From IMG/VR virus record IMGVR_UViG_3300045256_000567: DNA of 64,000 nucleotides. One strand, 5' to 3'. This document shows positions 1 to 57,266 of this stretch, piece after piece; the first letter of the stretch is position 1; each line of letters begins with the position of its first letter. The DNA is from a virus. A program made the translations under genes and the position numbers. The notes under the pieces were generated by a model. That model had not been told where the DNA came from. It worked only from the letters and a program-made list of their open reading frames with translations, and ran no database searches.

Positions 1-282
1 GTTCATTCTAAACAAATTGAATTGAACACTAAATCAGCGGCGCTTTCTATAGAAATAAGAGCTAATATACAAAATGAAACTGGAAAAAAAGTTACGAATA
101 GCGAGGTAGAAAGCATCATTTCTATAAACGAAGAAATAATGGGAATGAATAGAAAAATAGAGATTTATAAATCTTATTTACATTACTTAGAAGGTTTATA
201 TAAAGTAATGGAAATACTACATTATTCCGTAAAATTTAGGCTAGATCAACTAAACACAAATCTAAGAAAGAATAGTTTTTGA
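1..282 (+). CDS. 5'-truncated helical protein, possibly UvsY-like recombination mediator
   Basis: The frame is open from base 1, so the ORF-track start at 22 is not the real start. The pattern KVTNSEVESIISINEEI...KIEIYKSYLHYLEG loosely resembles the UvsY C-terminus. Confidence 0.35.
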   Translation, partial: VHSKQIELNTKSAALSIEIRANIQNETGKKVTNSEVESIISINEEIMGMNRKIEIYKSYLHYLEGLYKVMEILHYSVKFRLDQLNTNLRKNSF

Positions 283-285
283 AAT

Positions 286-1101
286 ATGCGCGGAGAAATA
301 ATAAATCTATCTTATGGTGGCTTTGTTCAATTGGTAGATTATATGGGATCAGATGAAACAATTGCAAATTCTGCAAGAGTTTCTTATGGCGGTAAAAAGA
401 AAAGATCAGATGAAGATTTAATAAAATATTTACTTAGAAATGAACATATGTCTCCATTCGAAATGGTAGAATTTATGTTCATTATTAAAGTACCAATTTT
501 TGTTGCTAGGCAAATGTTTAGACATAGAACGGCATCATTTAACGAAATTAGCGGAAGATATACTCAATATGAAGAAGAATTTTTTGTACCCAATGAATAT
601 AGAATAGATTCTCAAACTAACAAACAAGAGTCAGAATTAATAGAAAATGAAAACTATTTAGAAGAAGTGAAAGTATTGGTAGACGATATAAACAAAAAGT
701 CTTTTGAAGTATATAACAAACTTCTACACGAAAAAAAATTAACAAAAGAGTTGTCTAGAACAGTGCTTCCTTTAGGAACATTTACTAAGTATTATTATAA
801 ACAGGATTTAAGAAATCTTATGAATTTTTTGAGGTTACGATTAGATAATCATGCACAGAAAGAAATAAGAGAAGTCGCCAATGCAATAGAGTATTTTGTC
901 AAAAATATAACACCAATCACATACAGCGCTTTCAAGAGCTATATTATGGAGTCTATGAGGATAAGCAGAGAAGACCTACACTGCTTACCCAAAGAGGAGA
1001 GGATAAAAATATTAGAGGCTTTTAAAAACATGATACAATATCAAACTTCAAAAACTCGAAAAAAAGAGCTAGAAAGAATGCTTGAGGTATTGTTTGCATA
1101 G
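286..1101 (+). CDS. thyX: flavin-dependent thymidylate synthase
   Basis: ThyX motif RHRTASFNEISGRY, plus HMSPFE and HAQKEIR. Confidence 0.96.
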   Translation: MRGEIINLSYGGFVQLVDYMGSDETIANSARVSYGGKKKRSDEDLIKYLLRNEHMSPFEMVEFMFIIKVPIFVARQMFRHRTASFNEISGRYTQYEEEFFVPNEYRIDSQTNKQESELIENENYLEEVKVLVDDINKKSFEVYNKLLHEKKLTKELSRTVLPLGTFTKYYYKQDLRNLMNFLRLRLDNHAQKEIREVANAIEYFVKNITPITYSAFKSYIMESMRISREDLHCLPKEERIKILEAFKNMIQYQTSKTRKKELERMLEVLFA

Positions 1102-2789: not shown

Positions 2790-2816
2790 CAAAATGGCGG
2801 TATTTGTATTTAAAAT

Positions 2817-2845
2817 TGTATGTCTTCTGCAAATTTTGCTATAAT
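2817..2845 (+). promoter_or_regulatory. CTGCAAA-TGCTATAAT promoter motif copy heading the portal operon
   Basis: TGTATGTCTTCTGCAAATTTTGCTATAAT; degenerate member of the repeated motif. Confidence 0.65.
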
Positions 2846-2867
2846 ATAATAGAAAATTTATCGTAAA

Positions 2868-18103: not shown

Positions 18104-18744
18104 AGCCTATCTGTACTAGAGAATATTAATTCTGCTGCGTTTGTATTTGCAGGTATGTTAGAAACTTTTACTAATTTACTAAAATTTAATTCGGGAACAG
18201 AAGCTATATAATCGTAGGATCTATTTAAGTTTATTTCAAAATATCCACTAGAGTCGGTTATTGTTGAAGTAGTCATAGAACTATATGGAGAATTATCTGT
18301 ATAAGTAAGAGTATTTGCTACAGTAAAAGATAAAACTTTATCACTTAGCGGATTTCCTAAAGCATCATAAATATTTCCATAAATTTTTACTAACGAAGGA
18401 TTGACGAAATAATTTCCATAATGAATAAATTTGCTATCTTCTGAAATACCATCAGATATTTTTATATCTAATATAGATGGTTTTGGTAAAACAGACGAGG
18501 GAATTTCTACTATATAATAAAATTTTCCAACTTCAAAATCATTTAAAAATACACTATGTTGATATGTTGTGGAGTTTGGTGAAGAAGATGTACTCCATTT
18601 GTTTTGTATCAAATTAAAGTACACATATAAATTGTTTGTATAAATAAAAATAGTTAAAGTCAAATCATTAGTATTGTTTTTTCTAGCTAGAAAAGTTAAT
18701 TTTTCTCCAAATTTAAAATATTCTTTTATATATAGGTTGACCAT
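18097..18744 (-). CDS. hypothetical virion protein with carboxypeptidase-regulatory-like domain
   Basis: IYGNIYDALGNPL...TDSSGYFEINL. Confidence 0.55.
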   Translation of the reverse strand: MVNLYIKEYFKFGEKLTFLARKNNTNDLTLTIFIYTNNLYVYFNLIQNKWSTSSSPNSTTYQHSVFLNDFEVGKFYYIVEIPSSVLPKPSILDIKISDGISEDSKFIHYGNYFVNPSLVKIYGNIYDALGNPLSDKVLSFTVANTLTYTDNSPYSSMTTSTITDSSGYFEINLNRSYDYIASVPELNFSKLVKVSNIPANTNAAELIFSSTDRLC

Positions 18745-18751
18745 TTAATTT

Positions 18752-18778
18752 ATTATAGCACGTTTGCAGAAAACCTAC
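18752..18778 (-). promoter_or_regulatory. promoter motif copy, leaderless; overlaps the predicted TnpB guide
   Basis: GTAGGTTTTCTGCAAACGTGCTATAAT, 7 nt before ATG 18744. Confidence 0.75.
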
Positions 18779-18924
18779 GAGTGACGACTCCCAATTCTAA
18801 AGAATTGGGCTTCTCGCAAGAAGCGAAGGCTCCGTCCGAGCCTTAGCCAAGATATTTTGTGCCGCTGCAATATCCCGATGAAGGGTTGTATTGCATTTGG
18901 CGCAGGTATAGGTACGTATCCAAA
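18761..18924 (-). ncRNA. TnpB omega/reRNA (scaffold overlapping tnpB 3' end, plus guide at 18780-18761)
   Basis: Hairpin GGCTC-GGACG-GAGCC whose loop can pair with the terminal CGTC (pseudoknot), hairpin TCGC/GCGA, right-end hairpin CCCAATTCT/AGAATTGGG, end at TCAC. The 5' boundary is uncertain. Confidence 0.75.
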
Positions 18925-20080
18925 GTGGGTGTTTTTCTCTGTTACCACAAACAGGACAATCTTGGCTTGTGTATTTTGGGTCTACTTTTATTACTTGCCT
19001 ACCAGCTTCCTCCGCTTTGTAGGCAAGTATTGCTAGGAACTGTGCCCAACCTGCATCTAGGATACCTTTAGCTGTTCTAGTTTGAGCAAGTTGTTTTATA
19101 TCTAGGTCTTCGTGTACTATGGTTCCATATTTATTCACCAAGTCCTTTGCTACCTTGTGATGAAAATCCTTTCTTTGGTTTGCTATTTTTCGATGTACCT
19201 TGGCAACTAGTTTCTTAGCCTTGGTTCTTCTGTTGCTACCAGGTTTTCTTTTTGAAACTATTTGTTGTGCTTTGGCAAGCCTATCTTCAGACTTCTTGAA
19301 ATACCTAGGAGCAGGAACCATTTCACTGTCAGAGGTGGTTAGGAAGTTTGGGTTAGTACCAAGGTCTATTCCAACTGCATCTTGGTTTACAGGAAGTTTT
19401 TTTGGTTCTGTGATACAGGTGAAAATGACATACCATTCATCATTCTCCCTTTTTATAGAAGCTGTCTTTATTTGACCTTCAAGCGGTCTGTGAAACTTGC
19501 ATTTGATAGAACCAATCTTATGAACCAAAACTCTGTTTTTACCTTCTTGAATCTTGATTCCTGTTTTGCTTACTTGAGTAAAGGTGAAGCTGTCATACCT
19601 ATTTTCACCCTTGAATCTTGGGAAACCAGGTGTTTCACCTTTCTTTATACGCCTAAAAAAGCCTTGGTAGGCTTTATCTAACCTTTGTAGCACATCCTGA
19701 AGAACTTGACTATGTATATTCTTGTATTCTGGAAACTCTTCCTTTAGTTTAGGAAGTTGACTATTTTGCTCGTAACGGCTAATGGTCTTTTTGGAACTTT
19801 TGTACACGTCACGTCTTTTTTCCAAAGCAGTATTGTACAATTGACGACACAGAAACAAGGTTTTCTCTAAATCCTTGATCTGAGGCTTGGTTGGATACAG
19901 TCGGTACTTGAAAGACTTGATCATTGCTGACCTTTATTATACCATATTCAGGAATGTCACACTATTCAATCGCTTGTACATTATACCAAAAATTTATTAC
20001 CATTGTATTATGTGAGGGAGTCCATGTATCCCCGCTTTGAAAAGCGGGGAATTATAGCTCCCCCACACCCCCTCAATTTT
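18781..20080 (-). mobile_element. IS200/IS605-family (IS1341-type, tnpB only) element
   Basis: Right end GAAG-hairpin-GTCGTCAC at 18781, tnpB, and left-end-like hairpin TCCCCGCTTT/AAAGCGGGGA at 20029-20050. The left boundary lies between 20072 and 20080. No tnpA in the window. Confidence 0.8.
18797..19924 (-). CDS. tnpB: RNA-guided endonuclease TnpB
   Basis: KSFKYRLYPT N-terminus, GFPRFK, RuvC-I GIDLG, RuvC-II HEDL, Zn finger CPVC/CAKC, RuvC-III HRDIAAAQNI. Visibly more GC-rich than its neighbours. Confidence 0.96.
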   Translation of the reverse strand: MIKSFKYRLYPTKPQIKDLEKTLFLCRQLYNTALEKRRDVYKSSKKTISRYEQNSQLPKLKEEFPEYKNIHSQVLQDVLQRLDKAYQGFFRRIKKGETPGFPRFKGENRYDSFTFTQVSKTGIKIQEGKNRVLVHKIGSIKCKFHRPLEGQIKTASIKRENDEWYVIFTCITEPKKLPVNQDAVGIDLGTNPNFLTTSDSEMVPAPRYFKKSEDRLAKAQQIVSKRKPGSNRRTKAKKLVAKVHRKIANQRKDFHHKVAKDLVNKYGTIVHEDLDIKQLAQTRTAKGILDAGWAQFLAILAYKAEEAGRQVIKVDPKYTSQDCPVCGNREKHPLWIRTYTCAKCNTTLHRDIAAAQNILAKARTEPSLLARSPIL

Positions 20081-20098
20081 TTAAAGGTGTAGGGTTAC

Positions 20099-20131
20099 AA
20101 TTCCCAGTTCTTTAGAACTGGGAATCGTCAC
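20099..20131 (+). repeat. divergent copy of the IS605-type right end
   Basis: TTCCCAGTTCTTTAGAACTGGGAATCGTCAC versus GCCCAATTCTTTAGAATTGGGAGTCGTCAC, with a compensatory A-T to G-C stem change. Confidence 0.8.
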
Positions 20132-23100
20132 GGGTTTGGATGCAAAACAAGCACATAAATTTCATTGCTTATTGAATAGGGAAGGTTTAGCATTCTATAA
20201 CTTTGCGATGGCGTGTCAATTATAAGTTGATAAGGAATATATAAATTTTGTATAGAAGTATCTAAAATTCTTAGATTATAACAATAAGAGGTAGAAGTTA
20301 GAAAAACAGGGCGTATAAATTCATATGTACTTGAATCCAAAGGATCGTTTCTAGTATCAAAACCAGAGGATTTATTAATAATTAAGTTTGCGTCGCCATC
20401 TGCATTTAAAGCTATTATGTAATAAGTTTTTCCAGATTCAAATTTATATCCATGCGGGAAAAGTTTTTTATCACTAATAAATAGTGAATTATCGCTATTT
20501 ATATTATAGTTATTAATATCTAAAAGCAATTCATTAATTACGGCATTTTTATTACTTATTAAGTAATTAGTAACATTTAGACTAAAACTTGAAAATTTAT
20601 TTATATAATATTGATCATTAGAAATGACTTCTTCATTGTAAAGAAAATTCTCTATACATATATCTAAATGTTGAGATAAAAAAGAAAAGTAGCAAGGCAA
20701 ATAATAATTAAAATCAAAACTACTGTTTAACAAGTTTTTAAACGAAAAATTGTATGTATATATGAACGTTGCCGGAATTAAATCCTGTAAATCTTGGTTT
20801 TCAGGGTTGATAACATCAATATTAAAAACATATGGTCTAAAAACATGTACGGTACTTCTTGGAGATTTATCGGGGCTAGAAGAAAATTCGGCTAGAGATA
20901 CCCGTCCATTAAAATAGTTTAATATTTGACTAGTTGAGAGGTAATCGTTATTATTTAATTTAATATTTAAATTTAAATTTTTATCTTTAAAAACAATTGG
21001 TAAATACTCAACAAAAATAAAATCAAATACGGGGTAGGATAAAGAGGCATCATTTGTTGCCTGTGTTTTTGAAAAACTTTCACCTTTGAATTTTATTCTT
21101 ACAGAAAGCGGATCGTAAACATATGTGTCCTCGCTTAAGTATGTAGTGTATCCTCCTACGTCAATAAATGAAAAATATTCACTGTTTAATATATAAGGTT
21201 TAATATTGTTATTAACGTAATTAGACAATGGTAAATCTAAAGGAGGTATAAAATCAACTATATTATTATTTATTGATATAATATCAGTTTTTGAAGTAAA
21301 CTCATTATCAGAATTAATATTTGATGGTCCAAAATATGAGAATAATGAAAAAAATCTTGTAGGTGAATATTTGTTGCCATAATTAAATATATCAGAAAGA
21401 AATTGTAAAAACTCATTTAAGGCATTTGAGTTATTTTTTAAGGACACCAATGGAACGTGTGTAAAAACATTACGTACTATTGACAAATCCTGGTGAGATG
21501 GTAGCTGAGTTAAAAACATCATATCTTCAGATTGCCATGATGAGGAAGATACATCAACGCCTGGGTACGTTTGTGTTAAATAATTTAATGTTAAAGAATT
21601 TAAACTAGATATGAAATCATTAAAATTATTAAAATCTGGAATATCCAAAGTAAACTCTCTGGGAGTTTGATCATACGCGGGAACATACGAATATAAAATA
21701 AATCTGTTTGGGTTGTTTTTGTCGTTATTATTCTTATACAATACCACAACCGGTTTGTTGTTACTTGATAGACTTGTCAGATCAGAAAAATAAAAATTGT
21801 TTAAAACCCAAGCCTTTAAATTGCTGTAGGTATTTTTATTAAAATAATATTTTTTATCATTTTGAGCAAACTCATCCTCAACGAAAAGCTTTAGTGCTTT
21901 ATATACAAACAATCTCCCAAAATTTATAGATGGAAGACTTATAGAACCGGAATAAGATCCTAAGCTACTAGAATATGTACCTAAAGAAAGTATACTATTT
22001 ATAGTACTTGTAGAAAAATTACTTATTACATTATATATTGCGGGATAAAAATTATCTAAAAAATTTTTTGCAGTTAGGAAAATTCCCGAGTCTATTTGTG
22101 GATTTAAAAATTCAAATATACCCAATTTATTTAATGGATTTTGGTTATTTATTGTATTAAAAGAATATGTAAAATTTCCCGAAAAAGATAAATAATCTTT
22201 ATCAAAATGAAAGCAAACCTTTACTGGAACATTAGAAGTTTTTACATCAATTGTGCAATAAGTATCATTATTATTAGAAAATACAGCGCCATTATCAGTA
22301 TAAAAATCCTTAAATCCATTTTGTCCGCCTGTATTAAACCCAAAATTATTTACTTCTGGGGAGTATCCGAAAAATTTATTAGTTCCTATTGGTACAGATT
22401 CCATATTTTCAGCCGCAGTAATATTCTTAGAAAAGTTTAATGATGTTAGCGGACCTTCTGGATTTATTTTGTAAAATATTTCTTTCCCCGGAATTAATGA
22501 TAAAAAATAAAAATCATTTAAGTTATTACTATATTTACTATTCTCGTAATAAAAATTACTTATAGAAAAATTATTAATAGTAGTTTCATAAATATTATCT
22601 GAATTTGCTTTATAATTGCCGTCGTAGGTAAAAGGTAAGTATAAACTATATATGTAATATTTTGGATATATATTTTGTCCTATGCTTGGAGATACAAAAT
22701 TATAAGTTGGATCAATAGAATCATTTCCATATACAACAACAAAAATATCTATAGTAAGTATTCCTGCAAAAGAAAAACCCACATTAAACAAGTTTGTATT
22801 GTAAGTACTATCAAAAGAGCTTTCTGCCACGCCTATGGATTTATTTATATCTTGAATATTATAATTAATAGAAAAGCCGTTGTAGTAATTGTCTACAGGA
22901 TGATTATCCGGCAATTTGTCAAGTATTAAATTAACTAAACTTAAATCTACACCGGTATTACTGGGATCAATAAAAATGTACTTATTATTAATTTCATCAA
23001 AAATGGCAAATTTAGGAAGAACTTTTTCTTTAGTTAAATTGTTTAATAAAAAAGAAGAAACAACTTGCTTTAAAGTACTTTTTGTAGTTATATCAACAAA

Positions 23101-23253
23101 ACCCTTTCTTTTCCATGTCGGGGATTTTATATAATAAACATCTGGATAGGTATGTATTTTTATTGCTTCCCTATCAGGAAAAACAAAAGAAGAATTACCT
23201 ATGATATCTGGTGATGTGTATTCATTAATATCTGAACAACCTAAAGTTCTCAT
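20128..23253 (-). CDS. large Asn/Tyr/Phe-rich putative virion protein (1041 aa)
   Basis: Start moved to ATG 23253, 7 nt after TATAAT; the ORF-track extension runs through a palindrome. Confidence 0.65.
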   Translation of the reverse strand: MRTLGCSDINEYTSPDIIGNSSFVFPDREAIKIHTYPDVYYIKSPTWKRKGFVDITTKSTLKQVVSSFLLNNLTKEKVLPKFAIFDEINNKYIFIDPSNTGVDLSLVNLILDKLPDNHPVDNYYNGFSINYNIQDINKSIGVAESSFDSTYNTNLFNVGFSFAGILTIDIFVVVYGNDSIDPTYNFVSPSIGQNIYPKYYIYSLYLPFTYDGNYKANSDNIYETTINNFSISNFYYENSKYSNNLNDFYFLSLIPGKEIFYKINPEGPLTSLNFSKNITAAENMESVPIGTNKFFGYSPEVNNFGFNTGGQNGFKDFYTDNGAVFSNNNDTYCTIDVKTSNVPVKVCFHFDKDYLSFSGNFTYSFNTINNQNPLNKLGIFEFLNPQIDSGIFLTAKNFLDNFYPAIYNVISNFSTSTINSILSLGTYSSSLGSYSGSISLPSINFGRLFVYKALKLFVEDEFAQNDKKYYFNKNTYSNLKAWVLNNFYFSDLTSLSSNNKPVVVLYKNNNDKNNPNRFILYSYVPAYDQTPREFTLDIPDFNNFNDFISSLNSLTLNYLTQTYPGVDVSSSSWQSEDMMFLTQLPSHQDLSIVRNVFTHVPLVSLKNNSNALNEFLQFLSDIFNYGNKYSPTRFFSLFSYFGPSNINSDNEFTSKTDIISINNNIVDFIPPLDLPLSNYVNNNIKPYILNSEYFSFIDVGGYTTYLSEDTYVYDPLSVRIKFKGESFSKTQATNDASLSYPVFDFIFVEYLPIVFKDKNLNLNIKLNNNDYLSTSQILNYFNGRVSLAEFSSSPDKSPRSTVHVFRPYVFNIDVINPENQDLQDLIPATFIYTYNFSFKNLLNSSFDFNYYLPCYFSFLSQHLDICIENFLYNEEVISNDQYYINKFSSFSLNVTNYLISNKNAVINELLLDINNYNINSDNSLFISDKKLFPHGYKFESGKTYYIIALNADGDANLIINKSSGFDTRNDPLDSSTYEFIRPVFLTSTSYCYNLRILDTSIQNLYIPYQLIIDTPSQSYRMLNLPYSISNEIYVLVLHPNP

Positions 23254-23260
23254 AAAAGAA

Positions 23261-23353
23261 ATTATAGCAAAGTTTGCAGAAAACTTACAAAATATGTTTG
23301 CATTCATCCTACGCTTAAAAGCGTAGGCTTTCTGCAAACATATTTTGTAAAAT
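23261..23353. promoter_or_regulatory. palindromic IS605-type left end(s) forming a divergent promoter region
   Basis: 18-bp perfect inverted repeat 23285-23302/23333-23350 around the hairpin CCTACGCTT/AAGCGTAGG. On the minus strand, TTAC-15 nt-AAAG-hairpin. -10 boxes TATAAT (23266-23261) and TAAAAT (23348-23353). Confidence 0.75.
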
Positions 23354-23359
23354 ATTTCT

Positions 23360-24067
23360 ATGGAAAAGAAAATTAAATTAGAACTTAAAAAGAAACTTAT
23401 AGATCTAGTATCTCAATTTGAAGTTTCACGAGATTGGGGTAGGGTTGCTGGAAATTTTGATGGACAAATTTTGTCTTACGGTCCTTTACAGTGGAATATT
23501 GGACAAAGCACTCTTTTTTACGTTTTAAAAAGGATTCCTCAAGAAGTTTTGGAAAAATATCTTGGTTCTGATTTTGTTAAAAGTTTGTCCTCAAATTCTT
23601 CATTGAGGTATTTTGTTTTACACAATATCTTAGGCAAAAATGGAAATGTTCTTCCTGGTTGGTCTAAAAAATTTTCTGATCTAGCTAAAGAGCCTTCTGT
23701 TATATCCGCATTTGTAGTTTCTGCGGAGCCTTACTTTATAAAATCTAACGATTGTTTAAATGAACTTGGTTTTACTACAGAAAGAGGAGCAGCTTTATGT
23801 TTTGACATAACTGTACAAAATGGTGGTCTAAGAAAAGATCATAAAATTTTATATACTAGGTATATAAGCACTAAAAATCCGCAAAATGAGTGGGAAAAAT
23901 ATAAAATACTAGCAAATGTAATTGCTGAATTAGCTAACCCACAGTGGAAAAATGATGTATTAAATAGAAAACTTACCATTGCACTTGGTAAGGGTTCTGT
24001 GCATGGAGTAAATATAGATTTAGAAAAAGATTTTGATATTTCTTATAATCGAACCTGGTACATGTGA
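23360..24067 (+). CDS. lysozyme-fold peptidoglycan hydrolase (putative endolysin)
   Basis: FEVS...GNFDGQILSYGPLQWNIGQ and ALCFDITVQNGG, typical of lysozyme/chitosanase-fold muramidases. Confidence 0.7.
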   Translation: MEKKIKLELKKKLIDLVSQFEVSRDWGRVAGNFDGQILSYGPLQWNIGQSTLFYVLKRIPQEVLEKYLGSDFVKSLSSNSSLRYFVLHNILGKNGNVLPGWSKKFSDLAKEPSVISAFVVSAEPYFIKSNDCLNELGFTTERGAALCFDITVQNGGLRKDHKILYTRYISTKNPQNEWEKYKILANVIAELANPQWKNDVLNRKLTIALGKGSVHGVNIDLEKDFDISYNRTWYM

Positions 24068-24078
24068 CGACACCGCAC

Positions 24079-24312
24079 GTGACGACTCCCAATTCTAAAG
24101 AATTGGGCTTCTCGTAATTAACGAAGGCTCCGTCCAAGCCATTATCGGTATTTTCTTATTTTCCCGATGATTACCTTGAATCTTATAATTCAAGTACCTA
24201 CCAGCATTTTCAGCTTTGTAGGATTTGGTGTGCTTCTTTTGCACAAGTTTATTATAGCACAGTTTGCAGAAAGCCTACTCCTAAAATCACAGGCTTTCTG
24301 CAAACTTGTATT
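24079..24312 (-). mobile_element. non-autonomous IS605 derivative (MITE-like) carrying a stand-alone omega-RNA scaffold
   Basis: Left end TTAC|15 nt|AAAG-hairpin, tnpB remnants (24197-24222 matches 18998-19023 at 22/26), and a right end identical to that of tnpB over the last ~35 nt. Confidence 0.8.
24251..24278 (-). promoter_or_regulatory. promoter motif copy pointing into the omega-RNA-like sequence
   Basis: GTAGGCTTTCTGCAAACTGTGCTATAAT with no credible CDS downstream. Confidence 0.7.
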
Positions 24313-46887: not shown

Positions 46888-46915
46888 ATTATAACACACG
46901 TTTGCAGAAAACCTA
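46888..46915 (-). promoter_or_regulatory. promoter motif copy heading the protease-capsid operon
   Basis: TAGGTTTTCTGCAAACGTGTGTTATAAT. Confidence 0.75.
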
Positions 46916-46935
46916 TGTATTTTAAAAAGAAATTT

Positions 46936-48207: not shown

Positions 48208-48235
48208 ATTATAGCACAGTTTGCAGAAAGCCTAC
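48208..48235 (-). promoter_or_regulatory. promoter motif copy (outward-facing from the MITE left end)
   Basis: GTAGGCTTTCTGCAAACTGTGCTATAAT, identical to 24251-24278. Confidence 0.75.
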
Positions 48236-48409
48236 ACCTTTATGTGTAGGATGAATGCAAACAAATTTGGATACGTACCTATACCTGCACCAAATGCAAC
48301 ACAACCCTTCATCGGGATATTGCAGCAGCACAAAATATCTTGGCTAAGGCTCTGACAAAGTCTTCGCTTCTTGCGAGAAGCCCAATTCTTTAGAATTGGG
48401 AGTCGTCAC
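48213..48409 (+). mobile_element. non-autonomous IS605 derivative: left end fused to tnpB 3' end/omega-RNA and right end
   Basis: TTAT|AGCACAGTTTGCAG-AAAG-CCTACAC/GTGTAGG hairpin, then 48266-48409 matching 18924-18781 with 7 differences in 144 nt. Confidence 0.85.
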
Positions 48410-56741: not shown

Positions 56742-56768
56742 ATTATAGCATAGCTTGCAGAAAACCTA
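56742..56768 (-). promoter_or_regulatory. promoter motif copy heading the baseplate operon, leaderless
   Basis: TAGGTTTTCTGCAAGCTATGCTATAAT, 6 nt before GTG 56735. Its TAG is also the stop codon of the upstream gene. Confidence 0.75.
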
Positions 56769-57266
56769 ACTTTTGCAAATATTATAGGATCTATCTCCAG
56801 AGTCAAAAGAATTTACAGTTAAAGAATTAGAAAAAGTTCTACTTAAAGCATAAGCCTCTATTTCGTCAAATAAAAAATTAACTTTTATCACATACGGAAA
56901 ATTACTTAAATATTTTACAAAATTATCTATCGTATAACTTTTTATATAAAAATTTACTTCGTTATCTGTAATATTTTTTAAACTATATATAATTTTATTT
57001 TGATCAAAATTTAAAAAATATAATTTGTTTACTATTTCATTTTTTGCTGATAAAACATCTACAGATAAATTTTTAAATTTTAAAAATAAATACTCATTAC
57101 TAGAGTAATATTGATATGCAGAAGAGAAAAATGATATTTCAGTATTACCAGAATTCACGCTATATGAAGTAAATATTAAAAAATTTGAATAAGAAGTAGG
57201 AAGTTGTATATTCTGGTCTACAGAAAAATTTACAACTCTTCCTTGTGAGCTAGATATTGTAAACAT
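56766..57266 (-). CDS. hypothetical protein
   Basis: Operonic ORF. Confidence 0.6.
   Translation of the reverse strand: MFTISSSQGRVVNFSVDQNIQLPTSYSNFLIFTSYSVNSGNTEISFFSSAYQYYSSNEYLFLKFKNLSVDVLSAKNEIVNKLYFLNFDQNKIIYSLKNITDNEVNFYIKSYTIDNFVKYLSNFPYVIKVNFLFDEIEAYALSRTFSNSLTVNSFDSGDRSYNICKS

What the first reader, a model, noticed from the sequence alone, without database searches (positions are those of the whole stretch)
18752..19924. Phage TnpB whose predicted guide RNA is the conserved promoter motif of the virion-gene operons
Seen: the sequence just beyond the TCAC right end, TCGTAGGTTTTCTGCAAACGTG, matches the motif upstream of several operons. These are the protease-capsid operon (19-nt identity TAGGTTTTCTGCAAACGTG at 46897-46915), the baseplate operon (56742-56768), genes 48196 and 23253, the portal operon (2817-2845), the stand-alone omega-RNA (24251-24278) and both arms of the 23.3 and 24.3 kb palindromes. 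All three RuvC acidic residues of TnpB are present. Established: TnpB uses the sequence flanking the right end as its guide and needs a 5' TAM; nuclease-dead TnpB relatives (TldR) act as RNA-guided transcription regulators. Inference: one guide addresses a multi-copy regulatory element. Possible roles are (a) RNA-guided binding or tuning of late promoters without cutting, since every other copy mismatches guide position 1 and most also position 2, (b) homing into empty motif copies in co-infecting relatives, or (c) cutting multi-copy IS left ends in the host chromosome. A chance insertion next to a promoter remains possible.
Basis: partly seen in the sequence, partly recalled or inferred. Interest (0 to 1): 0.92.

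Follow-up and report, generated by a model that had tools for sequence, protein, structure and literature searches.

The report
Phage TnpB nested in promoter hairpin
An intact TnpB "jumping gene" in a Thermus phage landed inside one copy of a repeated hairpin that also forms the phage's promoters, so its guide RNA resembles those promoters as a by-product of where it landed, not because it regulates them.

Summary
The 20 nt after the TnpB element's right end (TCGTAGGTTTTCTGCAAACG, 18780->18761, minus strand) match a motif found about ten times in the window. One copy shares 19 nt exactly at 46897-46915.

The window is a distant relative of Thermus phage phiYS40. The tnpB element spans 18781-20079. 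It belongs to a Thermaceae IS200/IS605 family, and every member ends ...GAGTCGTCAC before an unrelated flank.

The motif is one arm of an imperfect hairpin. That hairpin is both the left end of sibling tnpB and guide-RNA-only elements in this phage lineage and the upstream half of leaderless-type promoters. This tnpB copy sits in the loop of one such hairpin, after TTTAA, so its guide equals one hairpin arm by construction.

- No other copy combines a TAM in register with an intact seed.
- TnpB keeps all three RuvC residues and its zinc finger, and is under purifying selection (dN/dS 0.22).
- Relatives and paralogues carry unrelated guides.
- The host genomes searched lack the motif.

The most likely role is ordinary selfish homing or retention at its own site. 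Earlier notes of this scan on the same genome had already flagged the nesting and the left-end/promoter identity.

The parts
18797..19924 (-). tnpB ('copy 3' of this phage genome), 375 aa, predicted active RNA-guided nuclease
   Evidence: Pfam OrfB_IS605, Cas12f1-like_TNB and HTH. Aligns to ISDra2 TnpB (8EXA/8H1J) at E 4e-57 with the RuvC D/E/D residues and CxxC..CxxC present. dN/dS is 0.22 against the L128 paralogue. Identical to database protein P0123.
18781..18930 (-). omegaRNA scaffold overlapping the tnpB 3' end, ending at the right end ...GGGAGTCGTCAC
   Evidence: A covariance model built from 15 family members scores 107.8 bits on 18781-18880. 9 of 28 pairs show compensatory changes. 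The 144-nt copy at 48266-48409 marks the likely 5' extent.
18761..18780 (-). Predicted guide (right-end flank) TCGTAGGTTTTCTGCAAACG. It is also arm A of the hairpin and the -35-to-spacer part of the gene-18744 promoter.
   Evidence: Family homology stops exactly at GTCGTCAC. Motif matches are listed.
18752..18757 (-). TATAAT -10 box, 7 nt before ATG 18744. On the + strand it contains TTAT (18753-18756), the apparent target/TAM of the host mini-element.
19925..20079 (-). Native left end of the tnpB element (GGGGGTGTGGGGGAGCTATAAT...), with the subterminal hairpin CCCCGCTTTTCAAAGCGGGG at 20029-20049 and TGgTATAAT boxes before tnpB
   Evidence: Aligns with the left ends of T72, TSP4, IMG/VR and Thermaceae copies. 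The left-end hairpin hits the right-end-hairpin part of the model.
20080..20085 (-). TTTAA(A) directly 5' of the left end: inferred TAM/target, lying in the loop of the interrupted hairpin (junction ambiguous by 1-2 nt)
   Evidence: Family left ends are preceded by TT(T)AGA, TTTACA or TTTAT. TTTAT is present in the phiYS40 empty site for the T72 insertion.
18757..18780 (+). Left part of a 76-nt tnpB-less mini-element (left-end head AGCACGTTTGCAGAAAACCTACGA) that hosts the tnpB insertion
   Evidence: With 18781-20079 removed, the sequence aligns with the left-end hairpins of the 48-kb mini-element, L128 and L127.
20080..20131 (+). Right part of the same mini-element: loop TTTAAA, second arm GGTGTAGG, and right-end hairpin ...CCCAGTTCTTTAGAACTGGGAATCGTCAC. 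Its TCA supplies the TGA stop of gene 20128-23253.
   Evidence: (24.9 bits). The ORF end is shown.
48213..48409 (+). tnpB-less mini-element: left-end hairpin (48213-48265) plus a 144-nt omegaRNA 95% identical to the tnpB-linked one. Guide is ATCACATGGCGC...
   Evidence: 96.6 bits. Removing it gives TGATATAAT before gene 48196.
24079..24245 (-). Stand-alone omegaRNA gene transcribed from a motif promoter (24246-24281). Guide is GTGCGGTGTCGTCACATGTA (24078->24059).
   Evidence: 78.9 bits. Stem 1 is kept despite a 9-nt deletion that destroys coding.
23261..23350 (.). Nested hairpin copies forming divergent promoters for genes 23253 (-) and 23360 (+)
24251..24305 (.). Perfect 15-bp inverted repeat of the motif. 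It forms divergent promoters for the 24-kb omegaRNA (-) and gene 24342 (+).
46888..46918 (-). Solo arm-A motif plus TATAAT before the head-protease/capsid operon. Closest match to the guide (2 mismatches, at positions 1 and 3; preceded by AAAAT).
56742..56771 (-). Solo arm-A motif plus TATAAT before the baseplate gene
2816..2850 (+). Degenerate arm-A motif plus TATAAT before gene 2868 and the portal gene

Best explanation
**What it is.** A non-autonomous IS200/IS605 (IS1341-type, tnpB-only) element spans 18781-20079 on the minus strand. It belongs to a family resident in Thermus, Meiothermus and Calidithermus and in their phages.

**Where it landed.** It inserted 3' of TTTAA(A) in the loop of a 76-nt hairpin mini-element. 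That mini-element lies between a large virion gene and gene 18744.

**What the hairpin is.** The hairpin family reads TTAT|AGCAYAGTTTGCAGAAAGCCTAC-loop-GTAGG.... It is multi-copy in this phage. It serves as the left end of sibling tnpB and omegaRNA-only elements. Read outward with the TTAT target, it also forms a TGCTATAAT extended -10 promoter 6-12 nt before start codons.

**Why the guide matches.** A TnpB guide is whatever DNA follows the right end. Here that DNA is the hairpin arm next to the loop, so the guide resembles every other copy.

**What it does (inferred).** The active TnpB-omegaRNA cuts the insertion-free allele of this one site (TTTAA plus TCGTAGG...), for example in co-infecting phages or after excision. 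Repair from an occupied copy then restores the element. This is ordinary selfish homing and retention.

**Shown versus inferred.** Shown: the anatomy, the boundaries, the family, the RNA structure and selection on the protein. Inferred: TAM identity, cleavage, and homing in phage co-infection.
For: 1. **Right end.** It is fixed by about 17 relatives that all end GAGTCGTCA(C/T) and have unrelated flanks.
2. **Left end.** Its homology starts after TT(T)AGA, TTTAT or TTTAA. phiYS40 provides the empty site for the T72 copy.
3. **Nesting.** Removing 18781-20079 reconstitutes a hairpin plus right-end stub that aligns with the 48-kb mini-element and with the left ends of L128 and L127. Removing the whole 18757-20131 keeps the upstream protein end (...HPNP stop) and leaves cATAAT 7 nt before ATG 18744.
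4. **Full-length sibling.** L128 shows tnpB (91% identical) with this hairpin as its left boundary and a guide that does not resemble the motif.
5. **Selection.** The RuvC triad and zinc finger are intact and dN/dS is 0.22.
6. **RNA.** The omegaRNA structure has covariation support, and three full copies are found in the window.
7. **Targeting.** No second site in the window has TAM plus seed.
8. **Literature.** The guide lies outside the transposon end and stand-alone omegaRNAs work in trans (PMC10691335).
Against: - No insertion-free allele of this locus was found in any collection, so the exact left junction and the TAM (TTTAA or TTAAA) rest on analogy.
- No tnpA is present in the window, so the original insertion needed a host transposase.
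- The hairpin is unlike the right-end hairpin and was not found in host genomes. Whether it began as a transposon end or as a phage promoter is unresolved.
- Hairpin loops resembling the TAM hint at site preference, so the placement may not be neutral.
- No expression or cleavage data exist.
Confidence: 0.72

Rival explanations
1. RNA-guided promoter regulation. The TnpB-omegaRNA binds the motif copies upstream of virion operons without cutting, because of seed mismatches, and tunes late transcription like a TldR.
For: - The guide overlaps the -35-to-spacer region of 8-10 promoters.
- TnpB relatives can act as RNA-guided repressors (PMC10705468).
- Shortened guide pairing can switch TnpB from cutting to binding (abstract of PMC13507860).
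Against: - The RuvC DED triad and zinc finger are intact, with no C-terminal truncation.
- The element keeps both transposon ends.
- No copy has a matched TAM-proximal 6-nt seed. The copies read aCaTAG, gCGTAG, TtGTAa, TCacAG, gaGTAG and gtGTAG.
- Only one copy (24280-) has a TTTAG-type TAM in register.
- Paralogues and relatives have unrelated guides.
- The motif also drives non-virion genes.
Confidence: 0.04
2. Inter-element targeting. The guide of this copy is directed against the left-end hairpins of the sibling elements. TnpB would cut or nick other hairpin copies, or the same hairpins in competing phages, acting as copy-number control, element-versus-element conflict or a weapon between phages.
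For: - The guide equals a left-end arm of a multi-copy element family.
- The loops of other hairpins carry TAM-like TTTAT, TTTTAA or TTTAG.
- This copy differs from its paralogues mostly in residues 35-122. That stretch includes positions aligned to ISDra2 residues that I recall as TAM-contacting (recollection, not tested).
Against: - On the strand where arm A follows the loop, the TAM position reads TAAAG or TAAAA in most copies.
- Every copy has 2-5 mismatches, including in the seed.
- Cutting its own genome at about 8 promoters would be lethal.
- No related phage with perfectly matching hairpins was found.
Confidence: 0.08
3. Neutral relic. The insertion is a dead end, the TnpB-omegaRNA is not expressed or not active, and the guide has no function at all.
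For: - No tnpA is present.
- Many degraded element pieces lie nearby.
- 618 phage records carry TnpB relatives, so such insertions are common.
Against: - The ORF is intact with all catalytic residues.
- dN/dS is 0.22 against a 91%-identical copy.
- The same junction occurs in two independent read sets.
- The omegaRNA structure is preserved even in tnpB-less copies.
- The left end carries its own TGgTATAAT boxes.
Confidence: 0.12

Closest known systems
ISDra2 TnpB-omegaRNA (Deinococcus radiodurans; PDB 8EXA, 8BF8, 8H1J) and the IS200/IS605 homing/retention model
   Same: - Same domain order, RuvC triad and zinc finger (E 4e-57).
- The omegaRNA overlaps the tnpB 3' end and the guide lies just outside the right end.
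- There are subterminal hairpins at both ends.
- Host relatives carry a Y1 tnpA.
   Different: - About 35% identity only.
- The TAM appears to be TTTAA or TTAGA rather than TTGAT.
- tnpB-only, in a lytic-type phage with 28% GC.
- Nested in another element's hairpin.
tnpB elements of Thermus phages T72, TSP4 and phiLo, and of Thermus/Meiothermus/Calidithermus chromosomes
   Same: - 61-68% protein identity.
- Identical right end ...GAGTCGTCAC.
- Homologous left end GGGGGYGTGGGGGAGCTATAAT plus hairpin.
- Same omegaRNA fold.
- phiLo also has a tnpB-less left-end plus omegaRNA miniature.
   Different: - Their guides are ordinary coding or intergenic flanks, unrelated to any promoter motif.
- None of them sits in a multi-copy hairpin.
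Stand-alone omegaRNAs and PATE-like mini IS200/IS605 elements (Altae-Tran et al., PMC10691335)
   Same: The window holds two tnpB-less omegaRNA units (24079-24245 and 48213-48409) beside an intact TnpB. This is the known arrangement in which guides can act in trans.
   Different: - One unit is driven by the phage's own repeated promoter hairpin, not by a transposon left end.
- The left 'end' of the minis is a hairpin not seen in host IS copies.
TldR (TnpB-like nuclease-dead repressors, some prophage-encoded; PMC10705468)
   Same: A phage-borne TnpB-family protein whose guide is complementary to promoter DNA.
   Different: - TldRs have lost RuvC residues and often the C-terminal domain.
- They sit outside transposon ends.
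- They target a site with TAM plus seed.
- None of this holds here.
Cas12r-CRISPR of Thermus Lalka phages (bioRxiv 10.64898/2026.04.20.719267)
   Same: A TnpB-derived nuclease encoded by a Thermus phage, where phage transcripts are leaderless and promoters are conserved.
   Different: - Cas12r is 564 aa and uses a CRISPR array with spacers against other mobile elements.
- Here there is no array, and the guides are fixed flanks.

Membership tests
TnpB (OMEGA RNA-guided nuclease of IS200/IS605) | HTH, OrfB_IS605 (RuvC) and zinc-ribbon TNB domains | tested here: met
   All three Pfam families score above their cut-offs.
TnpB (OMEGA RNA-guided nuclease of IS200/IS605) | RuvC D-E-D catalytic triad | tested here: met
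   D187, E272 and D351 align with ISDra2 D191, E278 and D361. They are invariant among the 6 paralogues.
TnpB (OMEGA RNA-guided nuclease of IS200/IS605) | Structured omegaRNA overlapping the gene's 3' end, ending at the right end, with the guide outside | tested here: met
   The family alignment shows 9 covarying pairs. The model scores 107.8 bits. Homology ends at GTCGTCAC in all members.
TnpB (OMEGA RNA-guided nuclease of IS200/IS605) | TAM 5' of the left end that matches the TAM required next to the target | tested here: inconclusive
   TTTAA(A) precedes the left end. Relatives show TT(T)AGA or TTTAT. No empty allele and no biochemical TAM are available.
TnpB (OMEGA RNA-guided nuclease of IS200/IS605) | RNA-guided dsDNA cleavage | not testable with these tools
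   Needs a cleavage or interference assay.
IS200/IS605 insertion sequence (IS1341-type, non-autonomous) | Subterminal hairpins at the left and right ends, no terminal inverted repeats, no tnpA | tested here: met
   The left-end hairpin (20029-20049) resembles the right-end hairpin. The apparent inverted repeat at 20103-20131 belongs to a separate mini-element. No tnpA is found in the window.
TldR (nuclease-dead RNA-guided repressor) | Loss of two or more RuvC DED residues and/or a truncated C-terminal ZnF/RuvC domain | tested here: not met
   The triad and both CxxC pairs are present and the protein is full length at 375 aa. The definition is from PMC10705468.
TldR (nuclease-dead RNA-guided repressor) | Non-transposon context with a guide matching a promoter that has TAM plus seed | tested here: not met
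   Both transposon ends are present. No motif copy has an in-register TAM with a matched 6-nt seed.
Type V CRISPR-Cas (e.g. Cas12r of Lalka phages) | Adjacent CRISPR array of repeats and spacers | tested here: not met
   A self-comparison of 18700-20200 against the window shows no repeat array next to tnpB. Rfam finds nothing.
Sigma-70-type extended -10 promoter (leaderless type, as in Thermus phages) | TGnTATAAT 6-12 nt before the start codon, conserved across operons | tested here: met
   7-9 copies of ...GCAAAC-N3-5-TGYTATAAT lie before start codons. Transcription starts were not measured. Leaderless transcripts in Thermus phages are reported.

The most novel reading that the evidence does not exclude
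This phage lineage may have turned an IS200/IS605 element into a toolkit: several TnpB paralogues with different TAM preferences, guide-RNA-only genes, and hairpin ends that serve as promoters. In that reading, this copy's guide against the shared hairpin is used, not accidental. For example, it could cut sibling hairpins in competing or co-infecting phages whose loop carries TTTAA. The repeated promoter element would then become a gene-drive landing pad, or a weapon between phages.
Probability: 0.08. Interest if true: 0.8.

Novelty: new member of a known kind. Interest (0 to 1): 0.35.

Why it matters
The case shows how a striking match between a guide and a promoter can arise with no regulatory function. 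The TnpB guide simply copies its flank, and the flank here is a repeated element. That matters for anyone mining genomes for natural RNA-guided transcription factors.

The surrounding picture is of moderate interest for how transposon parts get reused:
- The phage's promoters coincide with the left ends of its own tnpB and guide-RNA mini-elements.
- The right ends supply stop codons to converging genes.
- An intact, selected TnpB sits beside guide-only genes.

This picture was already noted elsewhere in this scan, and each component is of a known kind.

Tried and rejected
- **Terminal inverted repeats.** I first read 20103-20131 as one. I rejected this because the family's left ends start about 50 nt further in and lack that hairpin.
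- **Ancestral phiYS40-group late promoter.** I rejected this reading of the motif. phiYS40 has no CTGCAAA-N4-8-TATAAT, and its TTTCTGCAAAC-like hits lie in coding sequence. Orthologous upstream regions have TTGACA/-10 or plain -10 boxes.
- **Search for an insertion-free allele or closer relatives.** All of these found nothing:
  - IMG/VR and JGI metagenome scans with the 215-aa neighbour;
  - exact look-ups of TnpB, P0001, P0124 and the neighbour.
- **Logan contigs of the same phage.** They break at the repeats and show the same junction.
- **Whole genome.** None is held for this window.
- **Rfam.** No family matches.
- **Host copies of the hairpin.** The 17-mer is found only at chance level, and no hit elsewhere is followed by a -10 box.
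- **Generic sigma-70 scan.** It is uninformative in this AT-rich DNA: 33 found against 37.5 expected.
- **The phiYS40 transcription paper (PMC1885378).** It is not held, so I could not check its promoter consensus.
Full report
**Observation.** The ORF at 18797-19924 (minus strand) encodes a 375-aa protein with the three TnpB Pfam domains. It aligns over its whole length to ISDra2 TnpB. The RuvC Asp/Glu/Asp residues and both CxxC pairs are in place.

On the minus strand the gene is followed by ...GCCCAATTCTTTAGAATTGGGAGTCGTCAC and then TCGTAGGTTTTCTGCAAACGTGCTATAAT-aaattaa-ATG of gene 18744.

The 19-mer TAGGTTTTCTGCAAACGTG recurs exactly at 46897-46915. It has 6 hits at 3 or fewer mismatches against 0.03 expected. 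The downstream genes are head protease and capsid, baseplate, and the portal operon. The observation therefore stands, with small corrections given in the observation check.

**Source of the window.**
- It has 28% GC.
- Its proteins are 35-65% identical to those of Thermus phage phiYS40/TMA, with conserved gene order.
- No whole genome is held.
- Two Logan contigs are 100% identical to parts of the window and break at the repeats.
- The TnpB is in the protein database as P0123, on a 153-kb JGI contig, with paralogues 90-96% identical.

**The tnpB element and its ends.** The nearest TnpBs outside this phage lineage (61-68% identity) are in Thermus phages TSP4, phiLo and T72. Others are in IMG/VR contigs and in Thermus, Meiothermus and Calidithermus chromosomes, where some sit next to a Y1 tnpA.

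All of these end with GAGTCGTCA(C/T) followed by unrelated sequence. This fixes the right end at 18781 and the guide as TCGTAGG....

The last 100-130 nt form a conserved omegaRNA. 9 of its 28 predicted pairs show compensatory changes.

On the left, family homology begins at GAAAAGAGGGGGYGTGGGGGAGCTATAAT plus a hairpin like the right-end hairpin. It is preceded by TT(T)AGA, TTTACA or TTTAT. For T72, phiYS40 is the uninterrupted site, and the TTTAT belongs to the target.

In the window the same left end starts at about 20079, after CACC-TTTAA(A). The element is therefore 18781-20079, not 18752-19924. The inverted copy of the right-end hairpin at 20103-20131 is not part of it.

**What the motif is.** Each copy reads (G)TAGGYTTTCTGCAAAC-N3-5-TGYTATAAT and lies 6-12 nt before a start codon. 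That is an extended -10 promoter of the leaderless kind reported for Thermus phages.

It is also one arm of an imperfect hairpin. On the opposite strand this hairpin reads TTAT|AGCAYAGTTTGCAGAAAGCCTAC-loop-GTAGGATGAATGCAAAC. The hairpin is the left boundary of several elements:

- **48213-48409.** A 197-nt mini-element whose 144-nt omegaRNA is 95% identical to the tnpB-linked one.
- **L128.** A full-length sibling element in a related phage, with tnpB 91% identical and the guide CTTAGATATG....
- **The next tnpB copy of this phage.** It lies just left of the window, upstream of the ERF-RecA-ThyX operon (L127).

phiYS40 lacks the motif at the orthologous promoters. The 17-mer is absent from host genomes beyond chance.

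Cutting the elements out from TTAT| to GTCAC| has two effects:
- It leaves good -10 boxes: TGATATAAT before gene 48196 and cATAAT before gene 18744.
- It keeps the end of the converging gene, because both the right end (GTGA on the other strand) and the target (ATAA) carry a stop codon at the same offset.

I could not decide whether the hairpin began as a transposon end or as a phage promoter later fused to tnpB.
- Against a classical TnpA-recognised end: it is unlike the right-end hairpin, and the host genomes searched show nothing like it.
- Against a class-specific late promoter: it occurs before recombination genes and a guide-RNA gene.

**Why the guide matches.** Removing 18781-20079 leaves, on the + strand, TTAT|AGCACGTTTGCAGAAAACCTACGA-TTTAAA-GGTGTAGG...CCCAGTTCTTTAGAACTGGGAATCGTCAC|GGGTTTGG. 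This is a 76-nt mini-element of the same family.

The tnpB element therefore sits in the loop of that hairpin. Its right end abuts arm A, so its guide is arm A. The resemblance to all other copies follows from that alone. Earlier first-reader notes of this scan on the same genome had proposed this nesting and the identity of the motif with left ends. I re-derived both from the sequences.

**Tests of the proposed roles.**

(a) Regulation.
- The protein does not meet the TldR definition.
- At its own locus the target follows GTCAC, not a TAM.
- Among the other copies, none has a matched TAM-proximal hexamer.
- Only 24280(-) has TTTAG in register, and it mismatches guide positions 1, 2, 8 and 20.

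(b) Homing. This is supported only as the standard function at its own site.

(c) Host targets. The genome collections show no such targets.

The element is probably functional, for these reasons:
- dN/dS is 0.22 against L128. A more divergent block at residues 35-122 points to mosaicism.
- The omegaRNA fold is retained even in copies that have lost the coding frame.

**Residual interest.** The hairpin loops (TTTAT, TTTTAA, TTTA, TTTTAG) look like the family's TAM, so hairpins may be preferred landing sites. The phage also carries guide-only genes that could use this TnpB in trans. Both points are of known kinds, and other reports of this scan have already covered them.

**Verdict.** It has an ordinary mechanism with an unusual setting, and the regulatory reading is unlikely.

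Noticed in passing
window 24079-24281 (-): A stand-alone omegaRNA gene is driven by a motif promoter. Its guide, GTGCGGTGTCGTCACATGTA, contains a second GTCGTCAC (an older right-end stub). That stub's TCA gives the TGA stop of gene 23360-24067. Stem 1 of the RNA is kept despite a 9-nt deletion that abolishes coding.
   Followed up: partly
window 20128-20130, 24065-24067; L128:3641-3643; L011 (T72) end of the YS40_016 homologue: In four cases the gene converging on a right end takes its TGA stop from the right-end terminus (GTGACGAC on the other strand). The target TTAT read backwards (ATAA) gives a TAA at the same offset. Insertion at a stop codon overlapping a -10 box therefore changes neither the protein nor the promoter box.
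   Followed up: partly
L002 (phiLo) 160-349, minus strand: Thermus phage phiLo carries a tnpB-less miniature of the same IS family. It has the native left end with a TGTGGTATAAT box fused to the omegaRNA 3' module, ending GAGTCGTCAC|ATAGCCC.
   Followed up: no
window 18797-19924 versus L128:2501-3628: The two tnpB copies are mosaic. Codons 35-122 have dS 0.53 against 0.17 elsewhere, and most amino-acid differences cluster there. This copy has R50 where the paralogues have Y, at the column of ISDra2 Y52. This may reflect different TAM preference (TTTAA versus TTAT).
   Followed up: partly
window 23261-23350 and 24251-24305: Two divergent-promoter palindromes are built from nested or duplicated hairpin copies. 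They bracket gene 23360-24067 (phrog_30036, unknown function; 58% identical to YS40_055).
   Followed up: no
window 18781-20079: tnpB has 40% GC in a 28% GC phage, while host relatives are GC-rich. The gene has drifted far toward phage composition, which suggests long residence in the phage lineage.
   Followed up: no
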